Virus record (IMG/VR): IMGVR_UViG_2974791491_000001
Coordinates: 5,026 to 69,025 of that record
Strand: one strand, 5' to 3'
Source: a virus
Length of the DNA: 64,000 bases
In this document: positions 6,793-53,611 of the stretch, one piece after another
How the letters are laid out: each line of letters starts with the position of its first letter
How positions within the stretch are numbered: position 1 is the stretch's first letter
Made by a program: the position numbers and the translations under genes
Notes under the pieces: model-generated
The model's input: the letters and a program-made list of their open reading frames with translations, nothing else
What the model was told of the DNA's origin: nothing
Database searches by the model: none

Positions 6793-7280
6793 TGGCTATC
6801 GAGTTTCCGGACTGGTACAAGGGTGGTTTTCCTGACGCTGAGGCGGCAGTTAAGGCGATCCTTGATCCGTTCCTTAACCAGCTTAGCCCGATTCCGAGTG
6901 TGTGTGCTTGGCTGCCGGATGACTATGACAAGTATTTGCCTGTCGTGGCTATTCAGCGTGTCGGCGGAAAGATTTCGGATGACGGTTTGACCGACAACCC
7001 GCTGGTGTGGGTGTGGGTCATTTCTGAGCGGCGTCACGATTCGTGGCGGCTCATTGAATACATACGTCAGGTGATGAGGACGTATTGCAGGGGCGATCGG
7101 GTCGTCAATTCGGCCGGCGACGTGTTCCTGATTGAAAGCGTAAGCGAGGTCCAAGGGCCTGAGCTGACGCAAACCAACGTGCCAGACGAGCGTGTCATTC
7201 CCGTGGCGTTCGCACTTGAGACGAAGAAGTTTGCTTCGACTCCTGATTATGCACGCATTCGCGGGGAACTTTTTGATTGA
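6792..7280 (+). CDS. tail-completion-like protein
   Basis: Synteny only. Confidence 0.3.
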   Translation: MAIEFPDWYKGGFPDAEAAVKAILDPFLNQLSPIPSVCAWLPDDYDKYLPVVAIQRVGGKISDDGLTDNPLVWVWVISERRHDSWRLIEYIRQVMRTYCRGDRVVNSAGDVFLIESVSEVQGPELTQTNVPDERVIPVAFALETKKFASTPDYARIRGELFD

Positions 7281-23174: not shown

Positions 23175-23894
23175 ATGCGCAAAAAGACTCTCCCTTACAC
23201 TGCTTCGATCATCATGCAGGACACCTATTACTGGTGTGGTCCTGCCACGGTCCAGAATATCGCCTCGTCTCGCAAGTTTATTGCCGAACCGGCGTTGGCT
23301 AAGGAGATGGGGACGACCACGAATGGTACGAACCATATTGGGTTGCTCGCTAAGGCCCTGAATAAGCATTTGGGTGTCTTGTTTGCCACGGTGCTTATTG
23401 GTGGTGCTGATGCCACGGTTAAGCAGCGGGACAAGTTGTGGGCGGATCTCAAGGCGTCTGTTGATGGCGGTTATGGCGTTGCTATGAACTGGGTTGCTCC
23501 TCCGAATGGATACCCTAAGGGTGTTCTGGGGTCGCGTAATCCGTCTTATGGTGGCGGCACTGTCTATCACTATGTGGCGGCTATGGGGTATGCCGAGGAG
23601 AACGGTAAGCGTTATGTGCTGATCGTGGATTCGGGGTTCTCGCCGTACAGCTATTGGGTGACGCTCGAACAGTGCGCGACGCTGATCGCGGGCAAGGGCT
23701 ACGCCTATGCGGTGGTGCCTGCTCGTGACGAGCTTGAGGCTAAGCCGGTTACCGATTTCGTTAAGGCGTTCTTGGGGCCGTTGGCTTCGGACGTCAAGGA
23801 CATTCGGGGCCAGTTGGTTACTGCTTGGAAGCAGCTCGGGGGCCGCACGGTCGTGGACGGGCTGGCTGATACGCGGAGGTTGCTCGGTGGTTGA
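23175..23894 (+). CDS. endolysin component: cysteine-peptidase-like domain plus C-terminal repeat module
   Basis: YYWCGPATVQ papain/C39-like Cys motif; C-terminal module DFVKAFLGPLASDVKDIRGQL..DGLADTR repeated in the next gene. Confidence 0.5.
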   Translation: MRKKTLPYTASIIMQDTYYWCGPATVQNIASSRKFIAEPALAKEMGTTTNGTNHIGLLAKALNKHLGVLFATVLIGGADATVKQRDKLWADLKASVDGGYGVAMNWVAPPNGYPKGVLGSRNPSYGGGTVYHYVAAMGYAEENGKRYVLIVDSGFSPYSYWVTLEQCATLIAGKGYAYAVVPARDELEAKPVTDFVKAFLGPLASDVKDIRGQLVTAWKQLGGRTVVDGLADTRRLLGG

Positions 23895-24702
23895 GTCTTC
23901 GATCACCCGGACGCAGATATCGCCGAACAAGCACTACGGGGGCCGGGACGTCGACTGGGTTGTGATCCACACCCAGGAGGGCAATGGGCGGGCGCGGGAT
24001 ATTATCCCGTTCCTGTGCAACCCGGCGTCCGAGGTCTCCTATAACGCGGTTGTTGACGATGTGGAGTCGGTGCTTGTTGTGCCGTGGGACGCCAATCCGT
24101 GGGCGGCGATGAACGCCAACACGAGGGGCGACCACCTGTTGTCGGCCGGCTCTTTCGCTAAGTGGTCTAAGGCTAAGTGGCTTGAGATTGATGCGCGGGA
24201 CGGCAAGAACGAGAACGCGCAGATGGATCGGCTGGCGTTGTTGACGGCGTGGCGGTGCAAGGTTCGGGGTATTCCCCCGGTGTATGTGGGCGGCAAGGGC
24301 CGTCCTTCTAAGCCCGGTATTTGCGGGCATGTCGACTTTGGGGCTTGGGGCGGTGGTCATACCGATCCTGGGCCGAACTTTCCCTGGATCGAGTTTATCT
24401 CCCGTGTTCAGGGCTTCTACTACGGTGAGGATTTTGATATGGCCGCTAAGGATGAGGTTATCGACTTCATTAAGGGCTTCGTTGGGCCGATCGTGTCCGA
24501 CGTTAAGGACATTCGTCAGCAGCTCACGGGTGGCCGTGACTATGGCGAGTATCCGGGCTGGAAGCAGCTCGGGCAGAACGCTAAGGGCGAGAACTTCACG
24601 ATTGTTGATTCGTTGGCGGATACCCGTCAGCGGGTGATCGGTTTGGTGGATCTTGTTAAGGGTTTGGAGGCGCGGGTCTCCAAGTTGGAAGGTGGTAAGT
24701 GA
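23887..24702 (+). CDS. endolysin component: N-acetylmuramoyl-L-alanine amidase (PGRP/amidase_2-like) plus the same C-terminal module
   Basis: GTG 23887 with GGAGG 7 nt upstream. VIHTQEGNG..GICGHVDFGAWGGGHTDPGPNFPW amidase_2-like motifs. C-terminal DFIKGFVGPIVSDVKDIRQQL..DSLADTR. Confidence 0.55.
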   Translation: MVESSITRTQISPNKHYGGRDVDWVVIHTQEGNGRARDIIPFLCNPASEVSYNAVVDDVESVLVVPWDANPWAAMNANTRGDHLLSAGSFAKWSKAKWLEIDARDGKNENAQMDRLALLTAWRCKVRGIPPVYVGGKGRPSKPGICGHVDFGAWGGGHTDPGPNFPWIEFISRVQGFYYGEDFDMAAKDEVIDFIKGFVGPIVSDVKDIRQQLTGGRDYGEYPGWKQLGQNAKGENFTIVDSLADTRQRVIGLVDLVKGLEARVSKLEGGK

Positions 24703-24932
24703 TGGCTACTCAGGTTGAGCATCCTCGTCGGGCTGTTGTTCGGACGGTGTTTCAGGTTGTGATTGCCTTGGCGGCTGCGCTGCCCCTCATTGTTGTGGCG
24801 TCGGGTGTTCCGGCGACTGCTGCTGGTGTGGGTGTGGCGTTGGCTGTTGCGGCTGGTGTTACTCGGGTGATGGCGCTGCCCGTGGTCAATGATCTGATTG
24901 ACCAGTATGTGCCTTGGTTGCGCACTGAGTGA
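24699..24932 (+). CDS. holin
   Basis: 77 aa, two predicted transmembrane segments, directly after the endolysin genes with ATGA overlap. Confidence 0.5.
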   Translation: MMATQVEHPRRAVVRTVFQVVIALAAALPLIVVASGVPATAAGVGVALAVAAGVTRVMALPVVNDLIDQYVPWLRTE

Positions 24933-25303
24933 TTGAGCAAGTTGATCTGACGAGTGGTGGATGGTCCTCGATCATTCTGGTTGTGGGGTTTTTCTTCGCG
25001 GCTTTGGCTTCGGGGTTCATCCACTACTTGTACAAGAAGACGTCTCGTCTTCAAGCTGACTACGAGTCCTTGCGCCTGGACATGGAGAAGCTTAAGGAAG
25101 AGTCGCGGAAGCAGGAAGAGCGGCACCGGCAGGACCGGGAGAGCGACTACCGCATGATTAACCGGTTGCAGAACTTCATTGTGGACTTGCAGGTGTATGC
25201 GGCCCGCTTGCGGGGCATGCTGGCTGAGAAGGGCCAGGCGTCTCCTGCGCCTCCCGTGTTGGATGATGTTGACCTTGACCCTAAGGAACTGGTTACCCCT
25301 TAA
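24929..25303 (+). CDS. lysis-associated membrane/coiled-coil protein
   Basis: N-terminal transmembrane segment then charged coiled-coil region; GTGA overlap with holin. Confidence 0.35.
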   Translation: MIEQVDLTSGGWSSIILVVGFFFAALASGFIHYLYKKTSRLQADYESLRLDMEKLKEESRKQEERHRQDRESDYRMINRLQNFIVDLQVYAARLRGMLAEKGQASPAPPVLDDVDLDPKELVTP

Positions 25304-25310
25304 CGCAGAA

Positions 25311-25354
25311 CACCCCCTAGATGGCCCTGAGTGGCTTTCTAGGGGGTGTTTTTG
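25311..25354. terminator. bidirectional intrinsic terminator between late operon and leftward cassette
   Basis: CACCCCCTAG / CTAGGGGGTG 10-bp perfect stem, 18-nt loop, then TTTTTG; sits between convergent genes. Confidence 0.6.
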
Positions 25355-25458
25355 TCGTCTGCGGGACTCTGTGAGAGGGCGTCCCCAAGGGCGGCGAAAC
25401 GGGAGCTAACCGGATGCGGTGCCGCGCCTTGGAGACTGTTGCCTAGCCTAGCAGACGA

Positions 25459-25827
25459 CTAGCTTGCGTTGGCTGCCTCGTTGGCTTCGTATGCCTCCAT
25501 GATGTGCTTGGGGATACGGCCCTTCTCCGACACGGTGTAGCCGTTGTTGTTGGCCCATTCGCGGATCGCGGTGAGGTTGTGGCCGCTGGTGTCCGAGGCC
25601 GGCTTCGCGGGCTTGCTACCCCCGACCTTGGGTGCGCGGCCGACCTTGGTGGCCTTGTTGATCCACTTGTCCATGTCCTTGTAGAACCGGTCCTGGTTGG
25701 CGGCTCGGAGGTCGAGCTGGTAGGCGGTGCCGTTGACGACGAAGGGGACGGGCGACCATTCCTCGTCGGGGTTGATGAGCTTGCCATCGTAGTCGTCGGT
25801 GATTTCGAGTACTTCCTTGCGGGACAT
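25459..25827 (-). CDS. lsr2: Lsr2-like nucleoid-associated protein
   Basis: Lsr2-like dimerisation N-terminus plus C-terminal ..LTAIREWANNNGYTVSEKGRIPKHIMEAYE (RGR/AT-hook-like DNA-binding motif). Confidence 0.65.
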   Translation of the reverse strand: MSRKEVLEITDDYDGKLINPDEEWSPVPFVVNGTAYQLDLRAANQDRFYKDMDKWINKATKVGRAPKVGGSKPAKPASDTSGHNLTAIREWANNNGYTVSEKGRIPKHIMEAYEANEAANAS

Positions 25828-25836
25828 AGTCCTACC

Positions 25837-26127
25837 TCATTTCTTCATCTGTGCGGCTGCTTGGAACCATGAGTCTCTACGTTGGCGTTCGAGGCTAGCG
25901 TAGGTGAGGGCTTCGGCCTCTGTTCCACCCGCGTCTCGGATCTTCTGAACATCTGCTTGGTGCTGTGCTTCGGTGCCAGCGGCGACGAGCTTGAAGAATC
26001 CGATGAGGATGGTTACGGCGATCGTGAGGAATCCGAGGCCGGCCAGTGCGTTGACGTCTGCGACTACGCCGATGATGGCGGACGCGACTCCCAGGACGAA
26101 TGCGATAAGGGTCTTCATGCTCGGCAC
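25837..26127 (-). CDS. small membrane protein
   Basis: 96 aa with two hydrophobic helices; part of the leftward cassette. Confidence 0.35.
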   Translation of the reverse strand: MPSMKTLIAFVLGVASAIIGVVADVNALAGLGFLTIAVTILIGFFKLVAAGTEAQHQADVQKIRDAGGTEAEALTYASLERQRRDSWFQAAAQMKK

Positions 26128-26139
26128 CTTAACACCTGG

Positions 26140-26529
26140 TTAGGGCTTAAGGCCGAGGGTTTCCCTCAGCTCCGTCACGGCCACGTGATAGCCGTACCGT
26201 TCACCTTCGTTGTCCACGACCTCCGGGTAGGGCATGTCGAGGAACTTCTTGACCTGGTCGAGGGTGGTTTGCTGACCGGTCTTGAGCAGGTGAAAGTGGA
26301 TGCCGACGAGGAATCCGTCCACGAACATCGCGGCCATTCGTGACCCGGTTTCCGAGGTCAACGGGTCTCTGTCGCCGGTGATTCGTGCGACTCGTTCGCT
26401 GGCGGTCTGGATCAGGGCCGGCATGTCGACGTGTTCGCTGATCGCTTCGACGAGTTCTGGGTTACTGCCCGGTGGTGGGCTGTTGGTGCACTGCTTTAGC
26501 CACCACACGTCTGCGCTTTGGTCGCTCAT
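26140..26529 (-). CDS. hypothetical protein (leftward cassette)
   Basis: 129 aa ORF with good codon bias. Confidence 0.35.
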   Translation of the reverse strand: MSDQSADVWWLKQCTNSPPPGSNPELVEAISEHVDMPALIQTASERVARITGDRDPLTSETGSRMAAMFVDGFLVGIHFHLLKTGQQTTLDQVKKFLDMPYPEVVDNEGERYGYHVAVTELRETLGLKP

Positions 26530-26652
26530 GGTGTTGCTCCCGTTTGGTTGGTGTTGGGGGGAAGTCCCGTCACCAACAATACACAGGGAACGTATCGAGC
26601 GCTACTCGATAAAGAAATTTCTTTTGAAGACTTTTAAGCGGGGGCTTAGCGC

Positions 26653-27381
26653 TTAGCTGTTGTCTTCGGTTTCGGTAAGCCACTCCGGGGGTACGGTCTC
26701 CGGGATGATGAGGGGCTTTGCGAACTTGCGGTACGAGATATGAGCGGCCATGTAGGTGCACACGCTGATGACGACGGCTGCGGTGACGTTGAGGGCGTGC
26801 AGTTTCAGGCTGTCGCTGATGCAGGGGAAGATGGCGGCGACGAGGTGCAGGAGGGAGCCGACGGCCCAGGAGAAGCCGGTGATCCGGTAGTAGTGGGCGG
26901 CTTTCCGGTTGACGCTTCCGGGTGGGGTGATGCACACAATTTGGCCGGCCGCTTGGCAGATGATTGCGGCGTAGTAGGTGACGACCACGGTTAGTGCGAG
27001 TTGGTTGAGTACGTCGAGGTTGTTGGCGTAGGCAATCCATGAGATGGCGACTGCGATTTGTGCTGATCGTTCGGTGCGGATGCGTTCGGTGCGGGATAGT
27101 GCGCCGATGGCGGCGAGCATGTGGATGGACAGGGTGGCGGTGCCGACTACGACGAGCGTTGCGCCGATCTGGTAGTTGAGCTGGTGCCCGCCGAGCAATC
27201 GGTCGAGTGCAGTTACGGGTGGTGAGAAGAGGAGCCACGCCAAGGTTGTGGCGATGAGAGACAGGGTGAGCCAGCAGCAGTGGTTGGACTTGAGCCATCG
27301 TCTGCGCTGGATGAGTGCGGCTGCGCCTGCGGCGACGGGGAGTGCGGTAAGACCCGCGACGGCAAGGGACGTCAATGTCAC
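26653..27381 (-). CDS. polytopic integral membrane protein
   Basis: 242 aa, 6-7 hydrophobic helices; the overlapping minus-frame ORF 26570..27298 is Arg/His/Pro-rich noise. Confidence 0.45.
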   Translation of the reverse strand: MTLTSLAVAGLTALPVAAGAAALIQRRRWLKSNHCCWLTLSLIATTLAWLLFSPPVTALDRLLGGHQLNYQIGATLVVVGTATLSIHMLAAIGALSRTERIRTERSAQIAVAISWIAYANNLDVLNQLALTVVVTYYAAIICQAAGQIVCITPPGSVNRKAAHYYRITGFSWAVGSLLHLVAAIFPCISDSLKLHALNVTAAVVISVCTYMAAHISYRKFAKPLIIPETVPPEWLTETEDNS

Positions 27382-27539
27382 GGCGGTGTTCTCTTCTTTA
27401 GAAGCTGCGAGGGGAGGTGGTGATGCAAAAACACCCAGACCGGTGGTTTCCAGCCTGGGTGTCCGAGGGGAGGAATTGCGGTGTGGCGGTGAGGTTATCG
27501 CGCCTGGTGGGCGTGATGTTACAGCGGTGTTACGGAAGC

Positions 27540-27950
27540 TTAGAGCTGGTAGCCGTGTTCTACGGCGGCGTCAGTTCTCTTCCGTGTCGCGGTGGTCCCC
27601 CTCCCCGTCGTGCTGTGGGGAGAAAAATCCTCGTCCTCGCTGTCGAGCAGGTCGACGGCTTCGCGGAGCGCGGATTTCTTCCCGTAGCCCATCTCCACTA
27701 ATGCCTCGAACGGGTTGAGCCCGAAGTGGTTCATGGCCCGCATGACTTGGTCGGCGCTGATGGTGCCGTTGTCGCGGTGGACGGTGTACTGGGATCGGCC
27801 GAGGCCGACGGCTTCGGCTGCCTCTCCGACGGTGACCCTTCGGTCGAGCTTGTAGTGCGCGTATGCCTCGACGCTCATCCTTCGTTTTTTCCTCATGAAA
27901 CCGAGCTTACTGCACGGTAAGCCGCACAACAAGTCCGGATTTTCGGACAA
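27540..27950 (-). CDS. HTH DNA-binding protein, candidate immunity repressor (true start probably ATG 27878 or 27896)
   Basis: ..VTVGEAAEAVGLGRSQYTVHRDNG.. HTH. Track start is TTG; the internal ATG 27878 has GAGGAA upstream and would leave the operator palindrome intergenic. Confidence 0.5.
   Translation of the reverse strand: MSENPDLLCGLPCSKLGFMRKKRRMSVEAYAHYKLDRRVTVGEAAEAVGLGRSQYTVHRDNGTISADQVMRAMNHFGLNPFEALVEMGYGKKSALREAVDLLDSEDEDFSPHSTTGRGTTATRKRTDAAVEHGYQL
27933..27948. promoter_or_regulatory. operator-like palindrome GTCCGGATTTTCGGAC
   Basis: GTCCG-N6-CGGAC inverted repeat between divergent HTH genes. Confidence 0.4.
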
Positions 27951-28035
27951 TTTTGGGTCATGTTGTGTGGCTCACAAAACGGCCCGTGACCTGCGGTTTA
28001 CCTTCTCGTAACCCATCCGGCCGGCAGGACCAGCT

Positions 28036-28051
28036 GTCCGAAATTCCGGAC
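28036..28051. promoter_or_regulatory. operator-like palindrome GTCCGAAATTCCGGAC (half-site repeat GCCGGACAG at 28065-28074)
   Basis: Second copy of GTCCG-N6-CGGAC; a third half-site overlaps the start of the Cro-like gene. Confidence 0.4.
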
Positions 28052-28062: not shown

Positions 28063-28374
28063 GTGGCCGGACAGCCGACCGTAGTGTCCTCTCTCGTGAC
28101 CAGCACCACGGCGGCCAGGACGGCCGGACGGAAAGCCCAAACACTCCCCAAATACGAGATGGCTCTCGATCACAACCAAATCAGCAACCTCATGCAGGTG
28201 GCGCAAATCCCGAGCCTCAAGATGCTCGCTCAGACCGCTGGTATCCCCCGGTCTGTCCTCTCGGAATACGTCCACGGGAAACCCGGCGTATCCGCAAAGA
28301 CGGTCGGCGCTCTGGCCGGCGCTTTGCACACATATCCGGATCGAATAGCGCGCTGGTTGCACGCTACCAACTGA
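28063..28374 (+). CDS. Cro-like HTH DNA-binding protein
   Basis: ..LAQTAGIPRSVLSEYVHGKPGVSAKTVGAL.. HTH; divergent from the repressor-like gene. Confidence 0.45.
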   Translation: MAGQPTVVSSLVTSTTAARTAGRKAQTLPKYEMALDHNQISNLMQVAQIPSLKMLAQTAGIPRSVLSEYVHGKPGVSAKTVGALAGALHTYPDRIARWLHATN

Positions 28375-29098
28375 TCCCGACAACTTCATTCGCCTGAGTA
28401 GCCCACGCCAGGGGTGCGAGTCCCTTGGCAGGCACGACGGAGATGCGCCTCTAGCGCCTCCCTCATTCTTTCATTCCCTTTGAATCTGCGGTCTCCGTAG
28501 GTCTATTTGGCCTGCGCCCGTACCGGTTCGTGTTCCTTTCAGAACTTCATATGCCCGATGACGCTCCTGCCTAACGGTTTAAGAGTGCAGCCCCGTTGAC
28601 TTGTCCGGGGAGGCACCTAAAGGGGTGGGTGTCGGGAAGTGGCAGAGCCACACAACACAAAGTCTTCACCTGCTGTTTGAGACATGCCGCAAACACATAC
28701 ACAACACACTCCTGCTTCCCCGTTGGGGTGTGGTGATCTGGCGACCAACGTCCTCAGCGTCAGAGCATTAGGTCAACCCACCATACGAGTATGGGACGGC
28801 ACAGCTAGGGCTAAAGCTGTGGGGTTAGGCCGTAAACAGTCCAGGTGAGGGCCGAAGTGAAACGCAACGATACATGCGGTGGTAGTCCGATGTTTCCCTT
28901 ATGAAACGGGGATAGTCCATGTCTGCCGAGGTAGTTCCAACATTCATTTCAATTTGGGGCCGGTGAGCCTCCTTGGCCGCGTTGCAGGTTTCTACGGTTC
29001 GATCCGACTTCGGCCTGCTGGTTCCCCCTCTCCCGAAACGGGTTAGGGGTCGAACCATCCATGTAAGACCAGCTAGCACACCCTTTAGGAGACAAACA

Positions 29099-45969: not shown

Positions 45970-46313
45970 AACTGCGTGTCGAGTATGAAATTCCGGAGGA
46001 TCAGCACGAGCGGGTGCGGTTGCAGGCGAAGCTTTCGGAGCTGGATTCGTTGCTGTCGTGGGTGGAGCCGTGGAAGCGGACTATCAGCCTGATTGACGAC
46101 AGCCCACTACCGGCTTGCGCGACCGAGATGAAGCGTAGGCACCCGGAGCCGATTTGCGGTAGCTGTCGTGAGCCGATCCAGGCAACCGAATGGTGGGGTT
46201 ACCACCAACGCTTGCACTCGTACGTGCACCTGAACGCCCCCTGCTGGCACAACCTGTACGGGGAGGACGTCAGCGGCCACACCATGATGCTCGGTTCGGG
46301 GGTGCCCGCGTGA
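45966..46313 (+). CDS. hypothetical Cys-rich protein
   Basis: 115 aa, CGSCREP..CWHN. Confidence 0.3.
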   Translation: MKLRVEYEIPEDQHERVRLQAKLSELDSLLSWVEPWKRTISLIDDSPLPACATEMKRRHPEPICGSCREPIQATEWWGYHQRLHSYVHLNAPCWHNLYGEDVSGHTMMLGSGVPA

Positions 46314-47242
46314 CATTCCTAGTTGCTATGCGGGGCCTTCCCGGATCAGGCAAGACCACCCGTGCCCGCGAGATAGCTAAGGAGACCGGGGCTGTCGTTG
46401 TCGGCCGCGACTTCGAGCGGTTCCAGATGTTTGGGGAGTGGTGGACCGGCAAGAACGAGCATGAAAATGCCGTGACAGTTGCGCTCAACGCTAAGGTCCG
46501 GGCGCTGCTTAAGGACGATCAATCCGTGGTCGTCGATAACACCCACGTTCAGCTTCGCCTCCTCAAAGCCTGGGCCAAGATTGCGTCCGAATGTGGAGCC
46601 ACCTTCCACGTCGAGGACGTCAAGACGCCAGTCGAAACCTGCTTGTACCGGGACATGCAGCGGCAAGCCAACGGCGAGCGCTGGGTTGGTGAAGACGTCA
46701 TCAACCGGATGGCTAAGCAGATCAATTGGGGGCAGATTAAGCCGGTCCCGCCGATCATTGTTGAGCCTCTGCGCTACCAGGAAACCCCCTGGGACGCCGA
46801 TGCCGCGATCATTGTCGACATCGACGGCACCCTCGCTCACATGCGGGAGGTCAACGGCACGGTTCGTAGCCCGTACGACTACAGCCGTGTTCACGAGGAC
46901 GCGGCCGATCCGACCATCGTCAGCATTGTCTACGACTACAAGAACGCGCTGAACGGCACAGTAATCGTCTGCTCTGGCCGGGACGACGACTGCCGAGACG
47001 TTACCGAACAGTGGTTGAAGAGCCACAGTATCCCGTTCGACATGCTGCTGATGCGACCAGAGGATGCGCGGGACGCGAACGGCAACAAACTCCCGGACTG
47101 GATCGTTAAGTACAACCTGTTCAACGAGCACATTCGCGGCCAGTACGCGATCGACTATGTGCTCGATGACCGCAACCAGGTTGTGAACATGTGGCGAGCG
47201 CTCGGGCTTAAGTGCCTGCAAGTTCAGCCGGGAGACTTCTGA
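46310..47242 (+). CDS. pnkp: polynucleotide kinase-phosphatase (P-loop kinase + HAD phosphatase)
   Basis: GTG 46310 (GTGA overlap). Walker A GLPGSGKTT; C-terminal IIVDIDGTLAH (DxDGT HAD motif). Confidence 0.6.
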   Translation: MTFLVAMRGLPGSGKTTRAREIAKETGAVVVGRDFERFQMFGEWWTGKNEHENAVTVALNAKVRALLKDDQSVVVDNTHVQLRLLKAWAKIASECGATFHVEDVKTPVETCLYRDMQRQANGERWVGEDVINRMAKQINWGQIKPVPPIIVEPLRYQETPWDADAAIIVDIDGTLAHMREVNGTVRSPYDYSRVHEDAADPTIVSIVYDYKNALNGTVIVCSGRDDDCRDVTEQWLKSHSIPFDMLLMRPEDARDANGNKLPDWIVKYNLFNEHIRGQYAIDYVLDDRNQVVNMWRALGLKCLQVQPGDF

Positions 47243-47514
47243 TGGCCGAACCGAATGTCATCGAACTCAAGTCCGAAAGCGGAAAGGTCATCACCTTCCT
47301 GCACCCTTTCGAGCCGGGTGAAGCCGAAATGGTTTTGTCCGAGCTGAAAACACTTCGGGGCGGGTTTGACCAGATGATTGACGACCTCGAAAAGCGGGTC
47401 GAGAAGCTGCGCGTGGAAGGGCTCATGGAGCCGAGCGTTGTTGTCTCACTCGATGAATACCGGGCACGTAAGGCCGCTAAGGCGAGTGCTCTTGAACCTA
47501 AGGATATTGGTTGA
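47242..47514 (+). CDS. hypothetical protein
   Basis: ATGA-coupled to pnkp; 90 aa. Confidence 0.35.
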   Translation: MAEPNVIELKSESGKVITFLHPFEPGEAEMVLSELKTLRGGFDQMIDDLEKRVEKLRVEGLMEPSVVVSLDEYRARKAAKASALEPKDIG

Positions 47515-48818
47515 TTCTCGACGCACCTAAGAACAATAACTATGCCGTGACCGTTGTGCGTGTCCCGGCTACCTACGATCTGGATGGCTTGGACAACCTG
47601 GTGGGTGTCAAGGTGTTCAATTCGCAGATCCTCACTCAGCGTGACGGGGTGGAGCCGGGTGAGCTTCGCCTGTACTTCCCGGCCGAGGTCCAGATTTCGC
47701 CCGAGTACGCCGAGTACAACAGCCTGTACAGCGGTGGCGCTGGCCGCAATCGTGACCCGGAAGCCAAGGGCTACCTGGCTAAGAACCGCCGCGTGCGGGC
47801 AATCAAGCTGCGCGGTCACCGTTCGGATGCGCTGCTGATGCCGCTCGACTCGCTCAAGTGCTTCACTGGCCGCTACGACTACCTGCAAGAGGGCGACACG
47901 TTCGACGTGATCGAGGGTCACGAGGTTGTCCGCAAGTACGAGCTTCCCCGCAATGAGCCCAAGGCCGGCGCAACCAAGCTCGCTAAGGTCCTTAAGCGGG
48001 TGGACAAGGCCCTGTTCCCTGAGCATCTGTCGACCGACAACTTCTTCCGCAACTCGCACCTGATCGACGAGAAGCGTGAGGTGGTCATCACCCAGAAGTT
48101 GCACGGCACGAGCATCCGTGTCGGCCGTGTTCCGGTTCGCCGCGAGAAGGGCCGCTGGGAACGTTTCCTCAACAGCCTGGGCGCGGCTAGCCCGGACTTT
48201 GCTCACGAGCCGGTGTTCGGCTCCCGCAAGGTCATCAAGGAGGCCGACAACAGTCGCCAGAACCACTACTACGGTTCGGACATTTGGACCCGGAAGGGCG
48301 CGGAGATTGTCGCGGACATTCCGGACGGCTTCATTGTCTACGGCGAACTGATCGGTTGGACCGAGGACGGTTCGCCGTTGCAGAAGGGCTACACCTACGA
48401 CGTGCCTAAGGGGCAGTCGGAGTTGTACGTGTACCGGGTTGCGCGGATCGACGTCAACCGGACGCTCACGGATCTGCCTTGGGATGGCGTTAAGCAGTTC
48501 TGCAAGGAACGCGGCTGGAAGTATGTTCCGGAGATTTACCGGATTATCCCCGAGGATGAGGTCGACTACGTAGGCGTTGACCTGGATCACCACGTCACGA
48601 CGCTGATGGACGTGCGTTACGCCGACGAGTTCAGGAACCTTCAAGGGGTTACAGACAAGATGGTCCCCCTTTCGGACGCTAAGACTGTCGATGAAGGTGT
48701 GTGCATCCGTCAGGACGCAATTACCCCGGTCATTCTCAAGGCTAAGTCCCCTAAGTTCTTGCAGCACGAGACCAAGCAGCTCGATAAGGGCGAAGTCGAC
48801 TTGGAGAGCGCAGCCTAG
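47511..48818 (+). CDS. ATP-dependent RNA ligase-like nucleotidyltransferase (Rnl5/DraRnl-like)
   Basis: Candidate motif I ITQKLHGTS (Lys ~197 after ~190 aa N-domain), ..IVYGELIGW.., motif V-like VILKAKSPKF. Confidence 0.45.
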   Translation: MILDAPKNNNYAVTVVRVPATYDLDGLDNLVGVKVFNSQILTQRDGVEPGELRLYFPAEVQISPEYAEYNSLYSGGAGRNRDPEAKGYLAKNRRVRAIKLRGHRSDALLMPLDSLKCFTGRYDYLQEGDTFDVIEGHEVVRKYELPRNEPKAGATKLAKVLKRVDKALFPEHLSTDNFFRNSHLIDEKREVVITQKLHGTSIRVGRVPVRREKGRWERFLNSLGAASPDFAHEPVFGSRKVIKEADNSRQNHYYGSDIWTRKGAEIVADIPDGFIVYGELIGWTEDGSPLQKGYTYDVPKGQSELYVYRVARIDVNRTLTDLPWDGVKQFCKERGWKYVPEIYRIIPEDEVDYVGVDLDHHVTTLMDVRYADEFRNLQGVTDKMVPLSDAKTVDEGVCIRQDAITPVILKAKSPKFLQHETKQLDKGEVDLESAA

Positions 48819-49009
48819 TGCAGAACGGGCAAACGCAGTGTTACGTGGCATTCCCCGGCCACCAATTTGACGTGGAATCCTTGCGCTTCGCATACGACCA
48901 CCTGATTGGCATGGGAGTTCCGCGCACCCGAAAACTGACCATCGAATCCGTCCCCAAAGTGGGAGACGAGAAGTGCGATGGGATCGCATTTGTGGAGGTA
49001 GTTCCGTGA
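48818..49009 (+). CDS. hypothetical small protein
   Basis: 63 aa, GTG start overlapping TAG. Confidence 0.25.
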   Translation: MQNGQTQCYVAFPGHQFDVESLRFAYDHLIGMGVPRTRKLTIESVPKVGDEKCDGIAFVEVVP

Positions 49010-49848
49010 CCGTTCACCTGTGGGCGCAAAGCCTCGACGACAAAGAGCTACACCCCGTTCACCCATTCCAGTTCCCTGGCGGCGAATGGCACATCACCCT
49101 CGGTGAACCGTTCGACCAGAGCCGCGACTACCAGTGGATCGCCAACGTTCAAGGTGCTAGTGCCGAAGACCTCGTGGTGGCAACCCTGCTAGCGGACATT
49201 GCGATGGACCGTGGTGAGGACTCGACACTGCTCATCCCCTACCTGCCTGCTGCACGGGCAGACCGGGGTGTCCCCCTTGGGCTTAGCGTGTACGGCGGCA
49301 TCATCAACGCCGCATGCTTCACCGAGGTAGTCACGCTCGATGCGCACAACCCTAAGGCTGCGGTGCGGGAAGTGAGTGGGCTCGTCAACCTGTCTCCCAC
49401 GCCTTTGGTGACCGCGACCATCCAGTATCACGACACGTTCACCGGGGTTATCGCCCCGGACGCGGGTGCTCGTCAACGCGCCGCCGACGTGGCTACCTCA
49501 CTCGGTGTGCCCCTGGTGGTGGCCGACAAGGAGCGGGACTTCGCCACCGGCCAGATCATGGGCCTGACGGTCCCGGACCTCGACCGGCTGGGTAACTACC
49601 TGGTGGTCGATGACATTTGTGACGGCGGCGGCACCTTCATGGCTCTCGCTAGTGCCACGAACCTGCCGCAAGACCGGCTGTCCCTGTGGGTCACGCACGG
49701 CATCTTCTCGGGTAACGCGGCCAACCTGCTCAAGCACTACTACAAGGCCGTCTACACCACCGACTCTCACCCCGGTTCGGGGCAGCTCGGCATGTGGACG
49801 GTCAAAACCCCCACGTGGGCATACATGTACAGAAAGGTCCAAGCATGA
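49006..49848 (+). CDS. ribose-phosphate pyrophosphokinase (PRPP synthetase)-like protein
   Basis: GTG 49006 with GGAGG 8 nt upstream; PRTase/PRPP-binding loop NYLVVDDICDGGGTF. Confidence 0.55.
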   Translation: MTVHLWAQSLDDKELHPVHPFQFPGGEWHITLGEPFDQSRDYQWIANVQGASAEDLVVATLLADIAMDRGEDSTLLIPYLPAARADRGVPLGLSVYGGIINAACFTEVVTLDAHNPKAAVREVSGLVNLSPTPLVTATIQYHDTFTGVIAPDAGARQRAADVATSLGVPLVVADKERDFATGQIMGLTVPDLDRLGNYLVVDDICDGGGTFMALASATNLPQDRLSLWVTHGIFSGNAANLLKHYYKAVYTTDSHPGSGQLGMWTVKTPTWAYMYRKVQA

Positions 49849-51326
49849 CCAAGTTCGCACCCGTAGCAGCGCTCTTCCAGACCGACGCCTACAAGCTCGG
49901 GCACGTTCAGCAGTACCAGTTGGCCGGCGAGGTCACTAAGGTCTACTCGAATTACACCAACCGTAAGAGCCGGCTGCCCGGTGTCGACAAGGTTGTGCAC
50001 TTCGGATTGCAGGCGTTCATCCAGAAGAACCTTGTGGAGGCTTTCGAGCCGTTCTTCGCGGCCGACGAAGACCTGGTGTGCAACCTGTACGAGGAGCGGG
50101 TTGAGCAGATCCTTGGCCCGAACACCATCGGGTCGGATCACATTCGGGCATTGCACCGTAAGGGCTATCTGCCGCTGCGGTTCTGCGGCCTGCCGGAAGG
50201 CACTGAGGTTCCGATCAAGGTTCCGTCGTTCACGGTCGAGAACACCGAGGATGAGTTCTTCTGGCTGACCAACTACATCGAGACGGCGCTTAGCGCTGGT
50301 GTATGGCAGGCATCCACGTCCGCCACGATTGCCCGCCAGTACCGGAAGATCCTCGACGAGGCCGCGCTTAACACTGGCGCTTACCCGTTGGCTGTCGACT
50401 TCCAGTGCCACGACTTCTCTTACCGGGGAATGAGTTCCAATGAATCTGCCCAAGCCTCGGGTGCGGCGCACCTCCTATCGTTTAGTGGGACGGACTCTCT
50501 GGTCGCTCTCGATTGGATTGACCGCTACTACGGAGGTTCGGATTACGTTGCGGCGTCAGTCCCGGCGACAGAGCACTCCGTCATGTGCACCGGCATTGAA
50601 GCCGTCGGAGAGCTTGAGCTCTTTTCGCGCCTACTTGACCTCTACCCGTCGGGAATTGTCTCCGTCGTTTCGGACACCTTCGACCTATGGACGGTCCTGA
50701 CCGAGTTTCTGCCTGCACTTAAGGACAAGATCCTGGCGCGTGACGGCAAGCTGGTGATCCGTCCGGACTCGGGCGACCCGGAGACCATCATCTGCGGAGA
50801 CCCGGATGCCGAGGCAGGGTCCGCCGCCTGGTTTGGTGTCGTCCGGCTGCTTCGGATGGCTTTTGGTTGCACCTGGAATGAGGCCGGCTACCGCGAGTTG
50901 AACTCGCATGTGGGGGTCATCTACGGCGACTCCATCACCCTCGAACGCGCTAAGAGCATCACGGCGCGACTCGAATCTATGGGTTACGCATCCACCAACG
51001 TTGTGTTTGGTGTCGGCTCATACACCTACCAGCACAACACCCGCGACACGTTCGGCTCCGCGATGAAGGCCACATGGGCTGAGGTCGACGGTGACGGCGT
51101 CAACCTGCTTAAGGACCCGATCACTGATGACGGCACTAAGAAGTCGGCTACGGGGCGTCTGGCGGTCGTCAACAGCGAGTACGGCGGAGACCTCAAGCTC
51201 ATCGAACGAGCAACCCCCGAAGCCGAGCAGTGGAGCCTCCTCAAGCCCATCTGGGAAAACGGACAGTTCGTACAGCGAGTTACCTTCGCCGATGTACGGC
51301 GCACCCTGGCTAACGCGGGGGCTTGA
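49845..51326 (+). CDS. nicotinamide phosphoribosyltransferase (NAMPT/NadV)-like protein
   Basis: N-terminal ..FQTDAYKLGHVQQYQ.. and central ..CHDFSYRGMSS.. (DFGxRG-like) motifs; ATGA overlap with the upstream gene. Confidence 0.6.
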   Translation: MTKFAPVAALFQTDAYKLGHVQQYQLAGEVTKVYSNYTNRKSRLPGVDKVVHFGLQAFIQKNLVEAFEPFFAADEDLVCNLYEERVEQILGPNTIGSDHIRALHRKGYLPLRFCGLPEGTEVPIKVPSFTVENTEDEFFWLTNYIETALSAGVWQASTSATIARQYRKILDEAALNTGAYPLAVDFQCHDFSYRGMSSNESAQASGAAHLLSFSGTDSLVALDWIDRYYGGSDYVAASVPATEHSVMCTGIEAVGELELFSRLLDLYPSGIVSVVSDTFDLWTVLTEFLPALKDKILARDGKLVIRPDSGDPETIICGDPDAEAGSAAWFGVVRLLRMAFGCTWNEAGYRELNSHVGVIYGDSITLERAKSITARLESMGYASTNVVFGVGSYTYQHNTRDTFGSAMKATWAEVDGDGVNLLKDPITDDGTKKSATGRLAVVNSEYGGDLKLIERATPEAEQWSLLKPIWENGQFVQRVTFADVRRTLANAGA

Positions 51327-52739: not shown

Positions 52740-52811
52740 TCCCGTATAGCTTAATTGGCAGAGCGTCCGGTTGTTACCCGGATGGTCCAGGTTCGATTCC
52801 TGGTGCGGGAG
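52740..52811 (+). tRNA. tRNA-Asn (GTT)
   Basis: Hand-folded cloverleaf: acceptor TCCCGTA/TGCGGGA, anticodon arm TCCGG-TTGTTAC-CCGGA, T-arm CCAGG-TTCGATT-CCTGG. Confidence 0.7.
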
Positions 52812-52927
52812 CTTAGAGTAGATTGTTTCGGCTCCGTTTCGTAGAACACTCAGACGTCAATCCAAACGGGCAGCACTCGAAATCACTTACCCATGTGGGT
52901 GTCACTGGTTCATCGTTCGGGTGATCT

Positions 52928-52998
52928 GGGGCGATAGTTCAGTGGTAGAACGGCGGTCTCCAAAGCCGCTCGCCGGGGTTCGATTCCTCGTCGCCTCG
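52928..52998 (+). tRNA. tRNA-Trp (CCA)
   Basis: Acceptor GGGGCGA/TCGCCTC, D-arm GTTC-AGTGGTA-GAAC, anticodon loop CTCCAAA, T-loop TTCGATT. Confidence 0.7.
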
Positions 52999-53030
52999 CC
53001 GCGCTTGGCTGTGCGCGTAAACAGCTATCT

Positions 53031-53103
53031 GCCTTAGAAACCGAATTGGCTAGGTGCCTGACTTCCAATCAGGATTTTGCGGGTTCAAGTCCCGTCTAAG
53101 GCT
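53031..53103 (+). tRNA. tRNA-Gly (TCC)
   Basis: Perfect acceptor GCCTTAG/CTAAGGC, anticodon arm CCTGA-CTTCCAA-TCAGG, T-arm GCGGG-TTCAAGT-CCCGT; short D-stem. Confidence 0.6.
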
Positions 53104-53196
53104 CAATGGGACGCCAGAGATAAACGCTGGTGCGGTAGAAGCTGACCCGATTCAGAAACCCGCCGATTCCCGATCACCGATGGCTGCCGGTATATG

Positions 53197-53272
53197 CAGT
53201 TTCTAACTCTCCGTAGCTCAGTTGGTCTTAGAGCAGGGCACTCTTAATGCCCGGGTCGCAGGTTCGAGTCCT
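53197..53272 (+). tRNA. tRNA-Lys (CTT)
   Basis: Acceptor CTCTCCG/CGGGGAG, D-arm GCTC-AGTTGGTCTTA-GAGC, anticodon arm GGGCA-CTCTTAA-TGCCC, T-loop TTCGAGT. Confidence 0.7.
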
Positions 53273-53345
53273 GCCGGGGAGACGTAGTGGGAGACGGGGG
53301 TTCGATTCCCTCCATGCGCGCTGTAGCTTAATGGTAGAGCACCCA
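53273..53345 (+). ncRNA. tRNA-like fragments (3'-half-like T-arm/acceptor piece followed by 5'-half-like acceptor/D-arm piece)
   Basis: GGGAGACGGGGGTTCGATTCCCTCCA then GCGCTGTAGCTTAATGGTAGAGCA; no complete cloverleaf can be folded. Confidence 0.3.
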
Positions 53346-53528
53346 CGCTTTGCAAATATGTTCCGGATGGCCCGCTCAAGGGATACGGCGCATAGAGCTA
53401 AGAGGTTGTAAGCCCGCAAAGCCCAACCCTTAGTCTCCGCAGGTTCGCCACCGAACTACCTGCGTTATCAAAACCCACGTGAATTGAGGCCGAAGGGCTG
53501 GTGGGCCTTAGTTGGAAGGGTGGACCCA

Positions 53529-53611
53529 AGGGCTTATGGCGGAATTGGCAGACGCGCCGGATTCAAAATCCGGTACTCATTGAGTGTGTGGGTTCGAGTC
53601 CCACTAAGCCC
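53529..53611 (+). tRNA. tRNA-Leu (CAA), long variable arm
   Basis: Acceptor GGGCTTA/TAAGCCC, anticodon arm CCGGA-TTCAAAA-TCCGG, 14-nt variable arm, T-arm GTGGG-TTCGAGT-CCCAC. Confidence 0.65.

What the first reader, a model, noticed from the sequence alone, without database searches (positions are those of the whole stretch)
25459..27950. Leftward cassette (Lsr2 + membrane proteins) between lysis genes and the repressor: likely prophage-expressed exclusion/defence module
The only minus-strand block in the window lies exactly where temperate actinobacteriophages keep lysogenically expressed genes. It encodes an Lsr2-like nucleoid protein, a 2-TM peptide, a 129-aa protein, a 6-7-TM membrane protein and an HTH repressor-like protein. 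It is separated from the late operon by a bidirectional terminator. Its cargo (polytopic membrane protein plus small partners) has no assignable function and is a candidate superinfection-exclusion or abortive-infection system.
Basis: inference. Interest (0 to 1): 0.6.

Follow-up and report, generated by a model that had tools for sequence, protein, structure and literature searches.

The report
Phage immunity cassette with orphan membrane genes
This is the already-annotated repressor-side gene block of Gordonia phage Kudefre: a repressor, a fast-evolving seven-helix membrane protein found only in this small phage group, two small add-on genes and an Lsr2 DNA-coating protein; it is a reasonable but untested candidate for prophage-encoded protection against other phages, and is ordinary in kind.

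Summary
The window is Gordonia phage Kudefre (cluster DU, 100% identity). The finding corresponds to its annotated genes 37-41. All five minus-strand genes are real (dN/dS 0.25-0.50, coding-type GC3).

gp37 is a full two-domain Lsr2. gp41 is the repressor, with a conserved promoter and two palindromic operators whose half-sites change in parallel in Octobien14.

gp38 (2-TM), gp39 (acidic, soluble) and gp40 (7-TM) match no family, defence model, solved structure or sequence outside seven DU phage isolates.

- The conserved core across the subfamily is repressor, 7-TM protein and Lsr2. gp38 and gp39 occur only in Octobienvirus.
- A structurally conserved intrinsic terminator sits between the repressor and gp40, and a conserved palindrome-bearing island precedes gp39. 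The block is therefore not a simple operon.
- The "bidirectional terminator" is two convergent hairpins.

A defence or exclusion role is plausible by analogy with Charlie gp32, CarolAnn 43/44 and the proposed Lsr2 interference, and gp40 evolves as fast as the immunity genes. Neither expression nor function could be tested. Lysogeny itself is not documented for this cluster in anything I could reach.

Verdict: anatomy confirmed, interpretation partly supported, a new member of a known kind, modest interest.

The parts
25309..25357 (+). Intrinsic terminator of the rightward late/lysis operon (hairpin B: ACACCCCCTAG...CTAGGGGGTGT, then TTTTTGT)
   Evidence: Fold, z -4.5. Inverted repeat I4. The sequence is identical in Octobien14, Neville and Rabbitrun. 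On the minus strand it lacks a clean U-tract.
25381..25436 (-). Hairpin A: probable terminator (T2) of the leftward cassette, just after the Lsr2 stop
   Evidence: Long GC-rich stem in the minus-strand fold, z -6.8. A hairpin sits at the same place in all four lineages with lineage-specific sequence. There is no canonical U-tract, so terminator function is inferred.
25459..25827 (-). gp37, full-length Lsr2-like nucleoid-associated protein (122 aa)
   Evidence: Pfam Lsr2 dimerisation domain 49.0 bits (cut-off 29.6) and Lsr2_DNA-bd 53.8 bits (cut-off 26.9). PHROG 1223, E 1.8e-31. Aligns to Mtb Lsr2 structures 6QKQ/2KNG/4E1P, with KGR in place of RGR. dN/dS 0.30.
25837..26118 (-). gp38, small 2-TM membrane protein (93 aa) with a charged C-terminal tail; Octobienvirus-specific
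   Evidence: Hydropathy. Found only in Kudefre, Sephiroth, Syleon and Octobien14, plus a weak 35% hit (E 1e-2) to Neville gp2. No family hit. dN/dS 0.25.
26140..26529 (-). gp39, acidic soluble 129-aa protein predicted to be all-alpha; Octobienvirus-specific ORFan
   Evidence: pI 4.8 and no TM segment. Homologues only in Octobienvirus. No family or PDB hit. AF2 pLDDT 53 and Foldseek uninformative. Good SD sequence GGGAG. dN/dS 0.30.
26530..26611 (-). Conserved non-coding island upstream of gp39: palindrome TATCGAG-N5-CTCGATA (26593-26611), -10-like TATTGT (26576-26581), 5' leader hairpin and SD. Candidate internal regulated promoter.
   Evidence: By my reading of the printed alignment, roughly 90% nt identity to Octobien14 here, against 63-69% in the flanking CDSs. 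The palindrome is unique in the window. Its TATCGATA core recurs upstream of Lsr2 in Neville and Rabbitrun. One of the AT-richest 100-bp windows, GC 0.45. Promoter function is inferred.
26653..27381 (-). gp40, 7-TM inner-membrane protein (242 aa; predicted N-out/C-in); conserved partner of the repressor across Deeyouvirinae
   Evidence: Hydropathy and positive-inside rule. Seven long helices in the AF2 model. The family comprises only Kudefre/Sephiroth/Syleon, Octobien14, Neville/Trax and Rabbitrun. Invariant QRRR, H87, E99, W115, C142 and KPLxIP. dN/dS 0.50.
27424..27464 (-). T1: intrinsic terminator between the repressor and gp40 (13-14 bp GC-rich stem, then UUUUUGC)
   Evidence: Fold. Inverted repeat I20. 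A hairpin plus T-run is present in all four lineages with unrelated stem sequences.
27540..27896 (-). gp41, immunity repressor (annotated start 27878; probable leaderless start at ATG 27896, giving 118 aa)
   Evidence: PHROG 1746 'transcriptional repressor', E 7.7e-14. GenBank annotation. The ATG lies exactly 7 nt after the conserved -10 in Kudefre and Octobien14, with an in-frame 3-nt indel between the two ATGs. dN/dS 0.34.
27904..27932 (-). P_rep: -35 TTGTTG, 17-nt spacer, -10 TAAGCT; overlapped by palindrome GCTTAC-N6-GTAAGC (27905-27922)
   Evidence: Relaxed promoter scan. Conserved as TTGTGG-17-TAAGCT in Octobien14. Palindrome. Function is inferred.
27933..27948 (.). Operator O1: GTCCGGATTTTCGGAC
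   Evidence: One of only two perfect matches to GTCCGRAWWTYCGGAC in 64 kb. Forms inverted pair I1 with O2. The half-site changes in Octobien14 in parallel with O2.
28036..28051 (.). Operator O2: GTCCGAAATTCCGGAC, 12 nt upstream of the gp42 start
28063..28374 (+). gp42, Cro-like HTH protein; first gene of the rightward early operon
   Evidence: Pfam HTH_3 25.1 bits (cut-off 23) and HTH_26 24.9 bits (cut-off 22). Neville and Rabbitrun annotate Cro and excise at the syntenic position.

Best explanation
This is the repressor-side (lysogeny-side) accessory cassette of the integrase-bearing cluster DU Gordonia phage Kudefre.

SHOWN
- A leftward block has a subfamily-conserved core of immunity repressor, then a 7-TM membrane protein, then Lsr2. 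Octobienvirus adds an acidic soluble protein (gp39) and a 2-TM protein (gp38).
- The block has at least two regulatory tiers. (i) P_rep, flanked by two palindromic operators, drives a probably leaderless repressor mRNA that meets a conserved intrinsic terminator (T1). (ii) A conserved palindrome-bearing island precedes gp39-gp38-lsr2, and that unit ends at its own hairpin (T2), convergent with the late-operon terminator.

INFERRED MECHANISM
- In a lysogen, P_rep keeps the repressor high. A fraction of transcripts read through T1 and give a low dose of the 7-TM protein in the cytoplasmic membrane. There it blocks a membrane step of superinfecting phages, namely DNA entry, as Charlie gp32, P22 SieA and T4 Imm do.
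- gp40 evolves as fast as the immunity genes, and its predicted external loops are its least conserved parts.
- Lsr2 (gp37), made from the internal promoter and/or read-through, polymerises on AT-rich DNA. The phage is 58.7% GC in a host of about 67% GC.
- That would reinforce silencing of prophage lytic genes and/or poison the host Lsr2 function that incoming phages need.
- gp39 and gp38 are a lineage-specific soluble plus membrane add-on. They could act as a sensor/effector abortive-infection pair by analogy with Rex logic, without any homology to RexAB.
For: - Identity and annotation.
- Genes are real and under purifying selection.
- Lsr2 has both domains.
- Repressor, operators and operator/repressor covariation between Kudefre and Octobien14.
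- Conserved P_rep and leaderless geometry.
- Core triad conserved in Nevillevirus.
- T1 conserved in structure in 4 lineages.
- Conserved island and palindrome upstream of gp39 and of Nevillevirus lsr2.
- gp40 diverges like the immunity genes. Kudefre-Neville identity is 27.5% for gp40, against 24% for the repressor, 19% for cro, 47.5% for Lsr2 and 58-76% for lysis genes.
- Predicted outside loops are least conserved (3/32 invariant, against 13/61 for inside loops).
- The integrase is present in the genome.
- Lsr2 at the end of a leftward block convergent on the lysis operon recurs in clusters L, E and Smoothievirus.
- Literature: repressor-co-expressed membrane plus cytosolic defence pairs, and the single-membrane-protein exclusion by Charlie (PMC6426606, PMC7542560). 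Host Lsr2 is required by phages, phage lsr2 is lysogenically expressed in Ladybird, and an interference role has been proposed (PMC10066036). Lsr2-encoding phages are enriched among temperate, low-GC genomes (PMC8612146).
Against: - There are no expression data.
- T1 is a strong, conserved terminator immediately upstream of gp40. No convincing promoter lies between T1 and gp40, so gp40 could be poorly expressed in lysogeny or expressed only conditionally.
- The internal island means gp39-gp37 may be regulated independently of the repressor, for example early in lytic growth.
- Lysogeny of DU phages is undocumented in what I could read. The lifestyle is listed as 'None'.
- No integrated copy was found in about 185,000 species genomes, and Logan holds only phage assemblies. 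The genome scans are pattern-seeded and could miss divergent copies.
- No PADLOC hit.
- gp38, gp39 and gp40 have no homology to any proven Sie or Abi protein.
- Structure models were too poor to help.
- Fast evolution of gp40 (dN/dS 0.50, below 1) is equally compatible with relaxed constraint. The neighbouring early genes gp45 and gp46 diverge as fast.
- Phage lsr2 also occurs in lytic phages, and no function has been shown for it (PMC10066036).
Confidence: 0.45

Rival explanations
1. The cargo genes (gp40 to gp37) serve lytic growth or establishment and are not prophage-expressed. T1 insulates them from P_rep. They are switched on from the internal palindrome-controlled promoter, or by anti-termination, early after infection. 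Lsr2 then remodels or counter-silences DNA so that the AT-rich phage genome escapes host Lsr2, or forms replication zones. The membrane proteins exclude co-infecting phages or tune lysis during the lytic cycle, as T4 Imm/Sp do.
For: - The terminator between the repressor and gp40 is conserved in four lineages.
- A conserved internal regulatory island precedes gp39.
- lsr2 is found in lytic as well as temperate phages, and host Lsr2 is needed for phage DNA replication zones (PMC10066036).
- The cassette abuts the lysis genes.
- No lysogen evidence was found for the cluster.
Against: - The genes have the same orientation as the repressor and are opposite to every early and late lytic gene in 64 kb.
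- No recognisable promoter lies between T1 and gp40, so gp40 most simply depends on P_rep read-through.
- In the documented cases, leftward genes next to the repressor are lysogenically expressed (PMC6426606), as is Ladybird lsr2 (PMC10066036).
Confidence: 0.25
2. gp40 is part of the lysis-lysogeny switch and is not a defence protein. It would be a membrane sensor or anchor whose conserved cytoplasmic motifs (QRRR loop, R-x3-KPLxIPE tail) bind the repressor, Lsr2 or a host factor. That would couple envelope or physiological signals to prophage maintenance or induction.
For: - Repressor and 7-TM adjacency is strict in every member of the subfamily, while other cargo varies.
- gp40 divergence tracks that of the repressor and cro.
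- The most conserved non-TM segments are cytoplasmic.
- Invariant polar residues H87, E99 and C142 lie in or at the TM helices.
Against: - There is no homology to any sensor, protease or anti-repressor family.
- No precedent is known to me in actinobacteriophages.
- Synteny by common descent in seven closely related genomes is weak evidence for functional coupling.
Confidence: 0.1
3. gp38, gp39 and gp40 are selfish or neutral 'moron' passengers with no role in phage-phage or phage-host conflict, for example host-fitness factors unrelated to phages, or decaying genes.
For: - They are ORFans with an extremely narrow distribution.
- gp38 and gp39 are absent from Nevillevirus.
Against: - All are under purifying selection and remain intact across lineages down to about 25-50% identity.
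- gp39 has a conserved upstream regulatory island.
Confidence: 0.1

Closest known systems
Prophage-mediated defence loci of actinobacteriophages co-located with the repressor: Gordonia phage CarolAnn gp43/gp44, Mycobacterium phages Sbash gp30/31 and Butters gp30/31 (RexAB-like logic), and the Charlie single membrane protein that excludes Che9c
   Same: Small membrane protein(s), with or without a soluble partner, encoded next to and in the same orientation as the immunity repressor of a G. terrae or M. smegmatis phage. The families are narrowly distributed and fast-evolving, with no informative domains (PMC6426606, PMC7542560).
   Different: - No sequence similarity. tblastn of gp38, gp39 and gp40 against 50,697 phage records finds only DU phages.
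- No DUF4747 or other Pfam hit in gp39, which is 129 aa against about 370 aa.
- The membrane proteins have 2 and 7 TM helices, not 4.
- A conserved terminator separates them from the repressor, whereas CarolAnn 43/44 are co-transcribed with it.
- No phenotype is known.
Phage-encoded Lsr2-like proteins (Pfam PF11774 + PF23359; CgpS of Corynebacterium prophage CGP3; lsr2 of mycobacteriophage clusters A2, E, J and L)
   Same: gp37 is a canonical full-length member with both domains. It sits at the end of a leftward block convergent on the late operon, as in JoeDirt, Cjw1 and PhinkBoden. The genome is low in GC relative to the host, as reported for Lsr2-encoding phages (PMC8612146).
   Different: - The minor-groove motif is KGR, not RGR, in all four DU lineages.
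- The genome also carries a Cro/CI-type HTH gene. Sharma et al. found that combination to be negatively correlated with Lsr2 (PMC8612146).
- It is only 30-39% identical to Lsr2 proteins of other phage clusters, and 35% identical to the nearest bacterial relatives found.
Lambda immunity region (cI-rexA-rexB from P_RM; leaderless cI mRNA; divergent P_RM/P_R with palindromic operators)
   Same: A divergent repressor/cro switch with palindromic operators. The repressor transcript is probably leaderless. Accessory genes lie downstream of the repressor on the same strand.
   Different: - Two operators were detected, not three.
- A terminator follows the repressor directly.
- The integrase is about 28 kb away in the left arm.
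- The accessory genes are unrelated to rexAB.

Membership tests
Lsr2 family nucleoid-associated protein (gp37) | N-terminal dimerisation/oligomerisation domain (PF11774) | tested here: met
   49.0 bits against a cut-off of 29.6, residues 1-63. Aligns to Mtb Lsr2 NTD 4E1P, E 1.2e-3.
Lsr2 family nucleoid-associated protein (gp37) | C-terminal DNA-binding domain (PF23359) with the minor-groove R-G-R 'AT-hook-like' motif | tested here: met
   53.8 bits against a cut-off of 26.9. Aligns to 2KNG/6QKQ. The motif reads K-G-R-I-P where Mtb has R-G-R-I-P, a conservative variant shared by all four DU lineages.
Lsr2 family nucleoid-associated protein (gp37) | Preferential binding and bridging of AT-rich DNA; silencing activity | not testable with these tools
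   Only candidate AT-rich troughs could be mapped, at 26571-26670 and 27881-27980.
RexAB-like two-component abortive infection (lambda RexAB; CarolAnn 43/44; Sbash 30/31) | Cytoplasmic RexA-like component with a DUF4747-type region (about 280-370 aa) | tested here: not met
   gp39 is 129 aa with no Pfam hit at E <= 0.1. There is no tblastn similarity to any phage outside Octobienvirus.
RexAB-like two-component abortive infection (lambda RexAB; CarolAnn 43/44; Sbash 30/31) | Four-pass RexB-like membrane component | tested here: not met
   gp38 has 2 TM helices and gp40 has 7. Neither shows sequence similarity.
RexAB-like two-component abortive infection (lambda RexAB; CarolAnn 43/44; Sbash 30/31) | Co-expression with the repressor in lysogeny, and phage-triggered loss of viability | not testable with these tools
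   Orientation agrees, but a conserved terminator intervenes.
Catalogued anti-phage defence systems (PADLOC-DB v2) | Significant match of any cassette protein to a defence-system HMM | tested here: not met
   Only sub-threshold noise was returned, with E 0.012-0.047 and about 12 bits.
Superinfection-exclusion membrane proteins (functional class: Charlie gp32, P22 SieA, T4 Imm) | Integral inner-membrane protein encoded by the resident phage | tested here: met
   gp40 has 7 TM helices and a consistent positive-inside topology.
Superinfection-exclusion membrane proteins (functional class: Charlie gp32, P22 SieA, T4 Imm) | Expressed from the prophage, and blocks DNA entry of other phages | not testable with these tools
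   This needs lysogen RNA-seq and infection assays.
Phage immunity repressor (gp41) | Sequence membership in a repressor family / HTH domain | tested here: inconclusive
   PHROG 1746 'transcriptional repressor' at E 7.7e-14. However, there is no Pfam HTH hit at E <= 0.1 and no PDB relative.
Phage immunity repressor (gp41) | Divergent arrangement with a cro-like gene, and palindromic operators in the shared control region that co-vary with the repressor | tested here: met
   Two perfect 16-bp palindromes occur only here in 64 kb; 0 of 100 shuffles reached the observed total of 9 matches at up to 3 mismatches. Both change half-site, from GTCCGR to GTTCGG, in Octobien14, whose repressor is 72% identical.
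Temperate lifestyle (prerequisite for a 'prophage-expressed' module) | Integrase plus repressor in the genome | tested here: met
   Tyrosine integrase is gene 6 and the repressor is gene 41. Neville and Rabbitrun also annotate excise and Cro.
Temperate lifestyle (prerequisite for a 'prophage-expressed' module) | Documented lysogens or integrated copies in bacterial genomes | tested here: not met
   No integrated relative was found in genome contigs (pattern-seeded, so not exhaustive). Logan and NCBI contigs are phage-length only. The lifestyle is listed as 'None' for DU in the Sharma et al. supplement.

The most novel reading that the evidence does not exclude
The conserved 7-TM protein and Lsr2, with gp38/gp39 in Octobienvirus, form one previously undescribed prophage defence system. 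In this reading an envelope-embedded sensor or gate is functionally coupled to a phage-specific nucleoid silencer. T1 acts as a conditional terminator that sets or releases the dose.
Probability: 0.12. Interest if true: 0.65.

Novelty: new member of a known kind. Interest (0 to 1): 0.3.

Why it matters
If gp40, alone or with gp38/39 and Lsr2, does protect lysogens, it would add another sequence-orphan system to the prophage-mediated defence repertoire of Actinobacteria. That repertoire affects phage host range and phage-therapy cocktail design for Mycobacterium and Gordonia relatives.

It would also give a tractable test of the open proposal that prophage-encoded Lsr2 interferes with superinfecting phages that depend on host Lsr2.

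The conserved repressor-terminator-membrane gene layout is a neat case for studying dose control of a potentially toxic prophage gene.

As it stands the locus is already annotated, and its kind is familiar to the field.

Tried and rejected
- **Family assignment of gp38, gp39 and gp40.** Pfam, PHROGs, PADLOC and NCBIfam gave nothing above noise. The gp38 hit to 'SCO2097 family' (21 bits against a cut-off of 110) is rejected as a TM-composition artefact.
- **Homologue hunting.** I ran tblastn against 50,697 phage records, the 5.8-billion-cluster search with single sequences and with a profile, an exhaustive phmmer over 1.84 billion representatives, GTDB species genomes, IMG/VR, JGI metagenomes and an exact-match contig look-up. 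Only the seven DU isolates were found.
- **Structure.** AF2 on the shallow permitted alignments gave pLDDT 46 for gp40 and 53 for gp39. Foldseek against PDB gave no hit with E < 1. The listed matches are disregarded as meaningless.
- **PDB sequence search.** gp39 and gp41 found nothing.
- **CPBP/'Abi' intramembrane protease idea for gp40.** Rejected: there is no Pfam hit, and only one His (H87) is conserved, so the EExxR / FxxxH / HxxxN motif set is absent.
- **PhinkBoden gp61.** Its gene overlaps an Lsr2 gene, but it is unrelated to gp38 and gp40.
- **Structured RNA in the spacers.** No Rfam match at E <= 1. By my inspection of the printed sequences, the gp39 leader hairpin shows no compensatory changes between Kudefre and Octobien14.
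- **Strict sigma-70 consensus scan.** It found no promoters. A relaxed TANNNT scan was needed, and it found no convincing promoter between T1 and gp40.
- **Lsr2 as bait for integrated DU-like prophages.** The scan returned only 35%-identical Amycolatopsis and Actinophytocola lsr2 loci.
- **A bad control.** One control row (lysA) used off-frame coordinates of mine and is not used.

Full report
**Identity**

The window is Gordonia phage Kudefre (OK040786.1/NC_060136.1) at 100% identity. Window position equals record position minus 5025. The phage belongs to Deeyouvirinae/Octobienvirus, which is Actinobacteriophage cluster DU.

The finding corresponds exactly to annotated genes 37-41:
- gene 37: Lsr2-like DNA bridging protein
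- gene 38: membrane protein
- gene 39: hypothetical protein
- gene 40: membrane protein
- gene 41: immunity repressor

No paper in the held library treats these phages functionally.

**Observation check**

The five ORFs are present and are real genes.
- Against Octobien14 (79% nt identity over the region), dN/dS is 0.30 (Lsr2), 0.25 (gp38), 0.30 (gp39), 0.50 (gp40) and 0.34 (repressor).
- GC3 is 0.66-0.88 with low GC2, unlike the overlapping shadow ORFs.
- gp37 passes both Lsr2 Pfam domains. It aligns to the Mtb Lsr2 DNA-binding and dimerisation structures, with KGR replacing RGR.
- gp38 has two adjacent TM helices and a charged tail. gp39 is acidic and soluble.
- gp40 has seven helices, with every basic loop on one side. 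That gives a predicted N-out/C-in topology.
- Genes 37-41 are the only leftward genes between genes 11 and 129, so the 'only minus-strand block in the window' claim holds.
- The whole genome has two more leftward blocks outside the window: genes 1-10, which include the tyrosine integrase (gene 6), and genes 130-146.

1. *Conserved core.*
   - In Nevillevirus (Neville, Trax, Rabbitrun) the block is just repressor, 7-TM protein and Lsr2.
   - gp39 and gp38 exist only in Octobienvirus.
2. *Terminator after the repressor.*
   - A GC-rich hairpin followed by a T-run lies immediately after the repressor stop in all four lineages (T1, window 27424-27464).
   - The stem sequences are unrelated between lineages, so it is the structure that is conserved.
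   - It lies only about 22-45 nt before the 7-TM start.
   - A relaxed promoter scan finds nothing convincing between T1 and gp40. gp40 probably depends on read-through, which would mean an attenuated dose.
3. *Regulatory island before gp39.*
   - The gp40/gp39 spacer is one of the AT-richest spots in the window (GC 0.45).
   - Its gp39-proximal ~80 nt are much better conserved than the flanking CDSs: roughly 90% by my reading of the printed alignment, against 63-69%.
   - It carries a palindrome, TATCGAG-N5-CTCGATA, that is unique in the window. The TATCGATA core recurs upstream of lsr2 in Neville and Rabbitrun.
   - It also carries a -10-like TATTGT, which is TATAGT in Octobien14.
   - This is a candidate internal, regulated promoter for gp39-gp38-lsr2.
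4. *Two terminators, not one.*
   - Downstream of lsr2 there are two hairpins.
   - One is lineage-specific and sits right after the lsr2 stop (25381-25436). It is the probable leftward terminator and has no clean U-tract.
   - The other is sequence-identical in all lineages and has a T-run on the plus strand (25309-25357). It is the late-operon terminator.

**The switch**

- P_rep is TTGTTG-17-TAAGCT (27932-27904), conserved as TTGTGG-17-TAAGCT in Octobien14.
- An ATG lies exactly 7 nt after the -10 in both phages. An in-frame 3-nt indel separates it from the annotated ATG.
- The annotated start has its SD directly abutting the ATG.
- A leaderless repressor mRNA starting at 27896 is therefore likely, as for lambda cI from P_RM (my own knowledge).
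- Two perfect 16-bp palindromes, GTCCGRAWWTYCGGAC, at 27933-27948 and 28036-28051 are the only perfect copies in 64 kb.
- In Octobien14 both change half-site to GTTCGG/CCGAAC, while the repressor is 72% identical.
- That covariation is what true operators of heteroimmune phages should show.

**Function of the cargo**

Every route to a functional assignment for gp38, gp39 and gp40 came back empty:
- four HMM libraries, including PADLOC
- PDB sequences
- all phage records
- 5.8 billion protein clusters
- an exhaustive phmmer over 1.84 billion representatives
- species genomes, IMG/VR and metagenomes

AF2 models were unusable (pLDDT 46 and 53), and the fold searches were meaningless.

What remains is indirect evidence.
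- The gp40 family keeps invariant QRRR (loop 1), H87, E99, W115, C142 and a C-terminal KPLxIP motif.
- gp40 diverges as fast as the immunity genes. Kudefre-Neville identity is 27.5%, against 24% (repressor), 19% (cro), 47.5% (Lsr2) and 58-76% (lysis genes).
- Its predicted outside loops are the least conserved segments.
- These patterns fit a protein in conflict with other phages. They also fit relaxed constraint, and the nearby early genes gp45 and gp46 diverge just as fast.

**Comparison with the known**

- In G. terrae and M. smegmatis phages, genes beside the repressor that are expressed in lysogeny include proven defences. CarolAnn 43/44 are co-transcribed with the repressor and follow RexAB-like logic. 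Sbash 30/31 and Butters 30/31 are further examples, and Charlie has a single membrane protein that blocks Che9c DNA injection (PMC6426606, PMC7542560).
- The Kudefre proteins share none of the defining features of the RexAB-like set. There is no DUF4747, there are 2 and 7 TM helices where RexB-type proteins have 4, and there is no sequence similarity. They may work like such systems but are not members.
- Phage lsr2 is common: 377 phage records matched.
- It is enriched in temperate, lower-GC phages (PMC8612146).
- It is lysogenically expressed in Ladybird, and it has been proposed to interfere with superinfection, because host Lsr2 is needed for productive infection (PMC10066036).
- Its placement at the end of a leftward block convergent on the lysis operon recurs in JoeDirt (cluster L), Cjw1 (cluster E) and PhinkBoden.
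- Kudefre is 58.5% GC across the window, and its DU relatives are listed at 58.7%. Phages of the same host with host-like composition are about 67.5%. The whole genome is therefore a plausible Lsr2 substrate.

**Caveats on lysogeny**

- The integrase and repressor argue for a temperate lifestyle.
- I found no documented lysogen.
- I found no integrated relative in bacterial genomes, though the scans are pattern-seeded and not exhaustive.
- Contigs carrying gp39 are all phage-length.
- The lifestyle is unassigned in Sharma et al.'s table.

**Verdict**

- The anatomy is confirmed and refined.
- The interpretation as a prophage-expressed exclusion/defence module is the best single hypothesis (about 0.45), but it is untested.
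- The conserved terminator and the internal control region leave real room for the rival that the cargo is expressed in lytic growth or conditionally (about 0.25).
- In kind, this is a new, orphan member of a familiar class. Interest is modest.

Noticed in passing
window 27876-27932: The repressor is probably translated from a leaderless mRNA starting at ATG 27896, 18 nt upstream of the annotated start at 27878. The conserved -10 TAAGCT ends 7 nt before this ATG in both Kudefre and Octobien14. The intervening 18 nt carry an in-frame 3-nt indel. The annotated start has its SD (GAAGG) directly abutting the ATG.
   Followed up: partly
window 27933-27948 and 28036-28051; Octobien14 L002 about 7030-7135: Both operator palindromes change half-site in parallel between Kudefre (GTCCGR) and Octobien14 (GTTCGG), while the repressors are 72% identical. 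This predicts that the two Octobienvirus species are heteroimmune.
   Followed up: partly
window 27905-27922: A third perfect palindrome, GCTTAC-N6-GTAAGC, overlaps the -10 of P_rep and is conserved with one mismatch in Octobien14. It is distinct from the O1/O2 motif and could be a site for the Cro-like gp42 or another regulator.
   Followed up: no
window 49006-51326: Adjacent genes 92 and 93. gp92 is a PRPP-synthetase-like 'pyrophosphate kinase' (Pribosyltran 25.2 bits, just below the cut-off). gp93 is a NAMPT/NAPRTase-family protein (E 6e-37). From memory, the pair resembles phage NAD+-reconstitution (NARP-type) counter-defence modules that act against NAD-depleting immunity.
   Followed up: partly
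window 46310-48818 and 52740-54864: A polynucleotide kinase-phosphatase (gp88) and an RNA ligase (gp90) lie upstream of a cluster of six tRNA genes (Asn, Trp, Gly, Lys, Leu, Tyr). This is the classic tRNA-repair and replacement toolkit against anticodon-nuclease defences.
   Followed up: partly
window 23175-25303 and 60303-61025: The lysis functions are split. Lysin A is encoded as two overlapping genes (C39 protease, then amidase), followed by a 2-TM holin-like protein and a PHROG 'Rz-like spanin' hit (gp36, E 5e-6). Lysin B lies about 36 kb away among late right-arm genes.
   Followed up: no
record OK040786.1 1432-2520 (outside the window; locus L004): The tyrosine integrase is in the left arm, about 28 kb from the repressor, within a separate leftward block (genes 1-10). 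In Neville and Rabbitrun an excise gene sits next to cro in the central switch. The integration and immunity functions are unusually dispersed.
   Followed up: no
window 27961-27973 and 28645-28657: A perfect 13-nt inverted repeat (TGTTGTGTGGCTC / GAGCCACACAACA) brackets the cro-like gene gp42, with the arms 671 nt apart. This may be chance.
   Followed up: no
Neville record MH651182.1 486-761 (gp2): The only relative of gp38 outside Octobienvirus is a weak match (35% identity, E 1e-2) to a membrane protein in the leftward left-arm block of Neville and Trax. This hints that small membrane genes shuffle between the leftward blocks of DU genomes.
   Followed up: no
window 28063-28374 with 25459-25827: Kudefre carries both a Cro/CI-type HTH (PF01381) gene and lsr2. 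Sharma et al. 2021 reported these two as negatively correlated across actinobacteriophage genomes.
   Followed up: no
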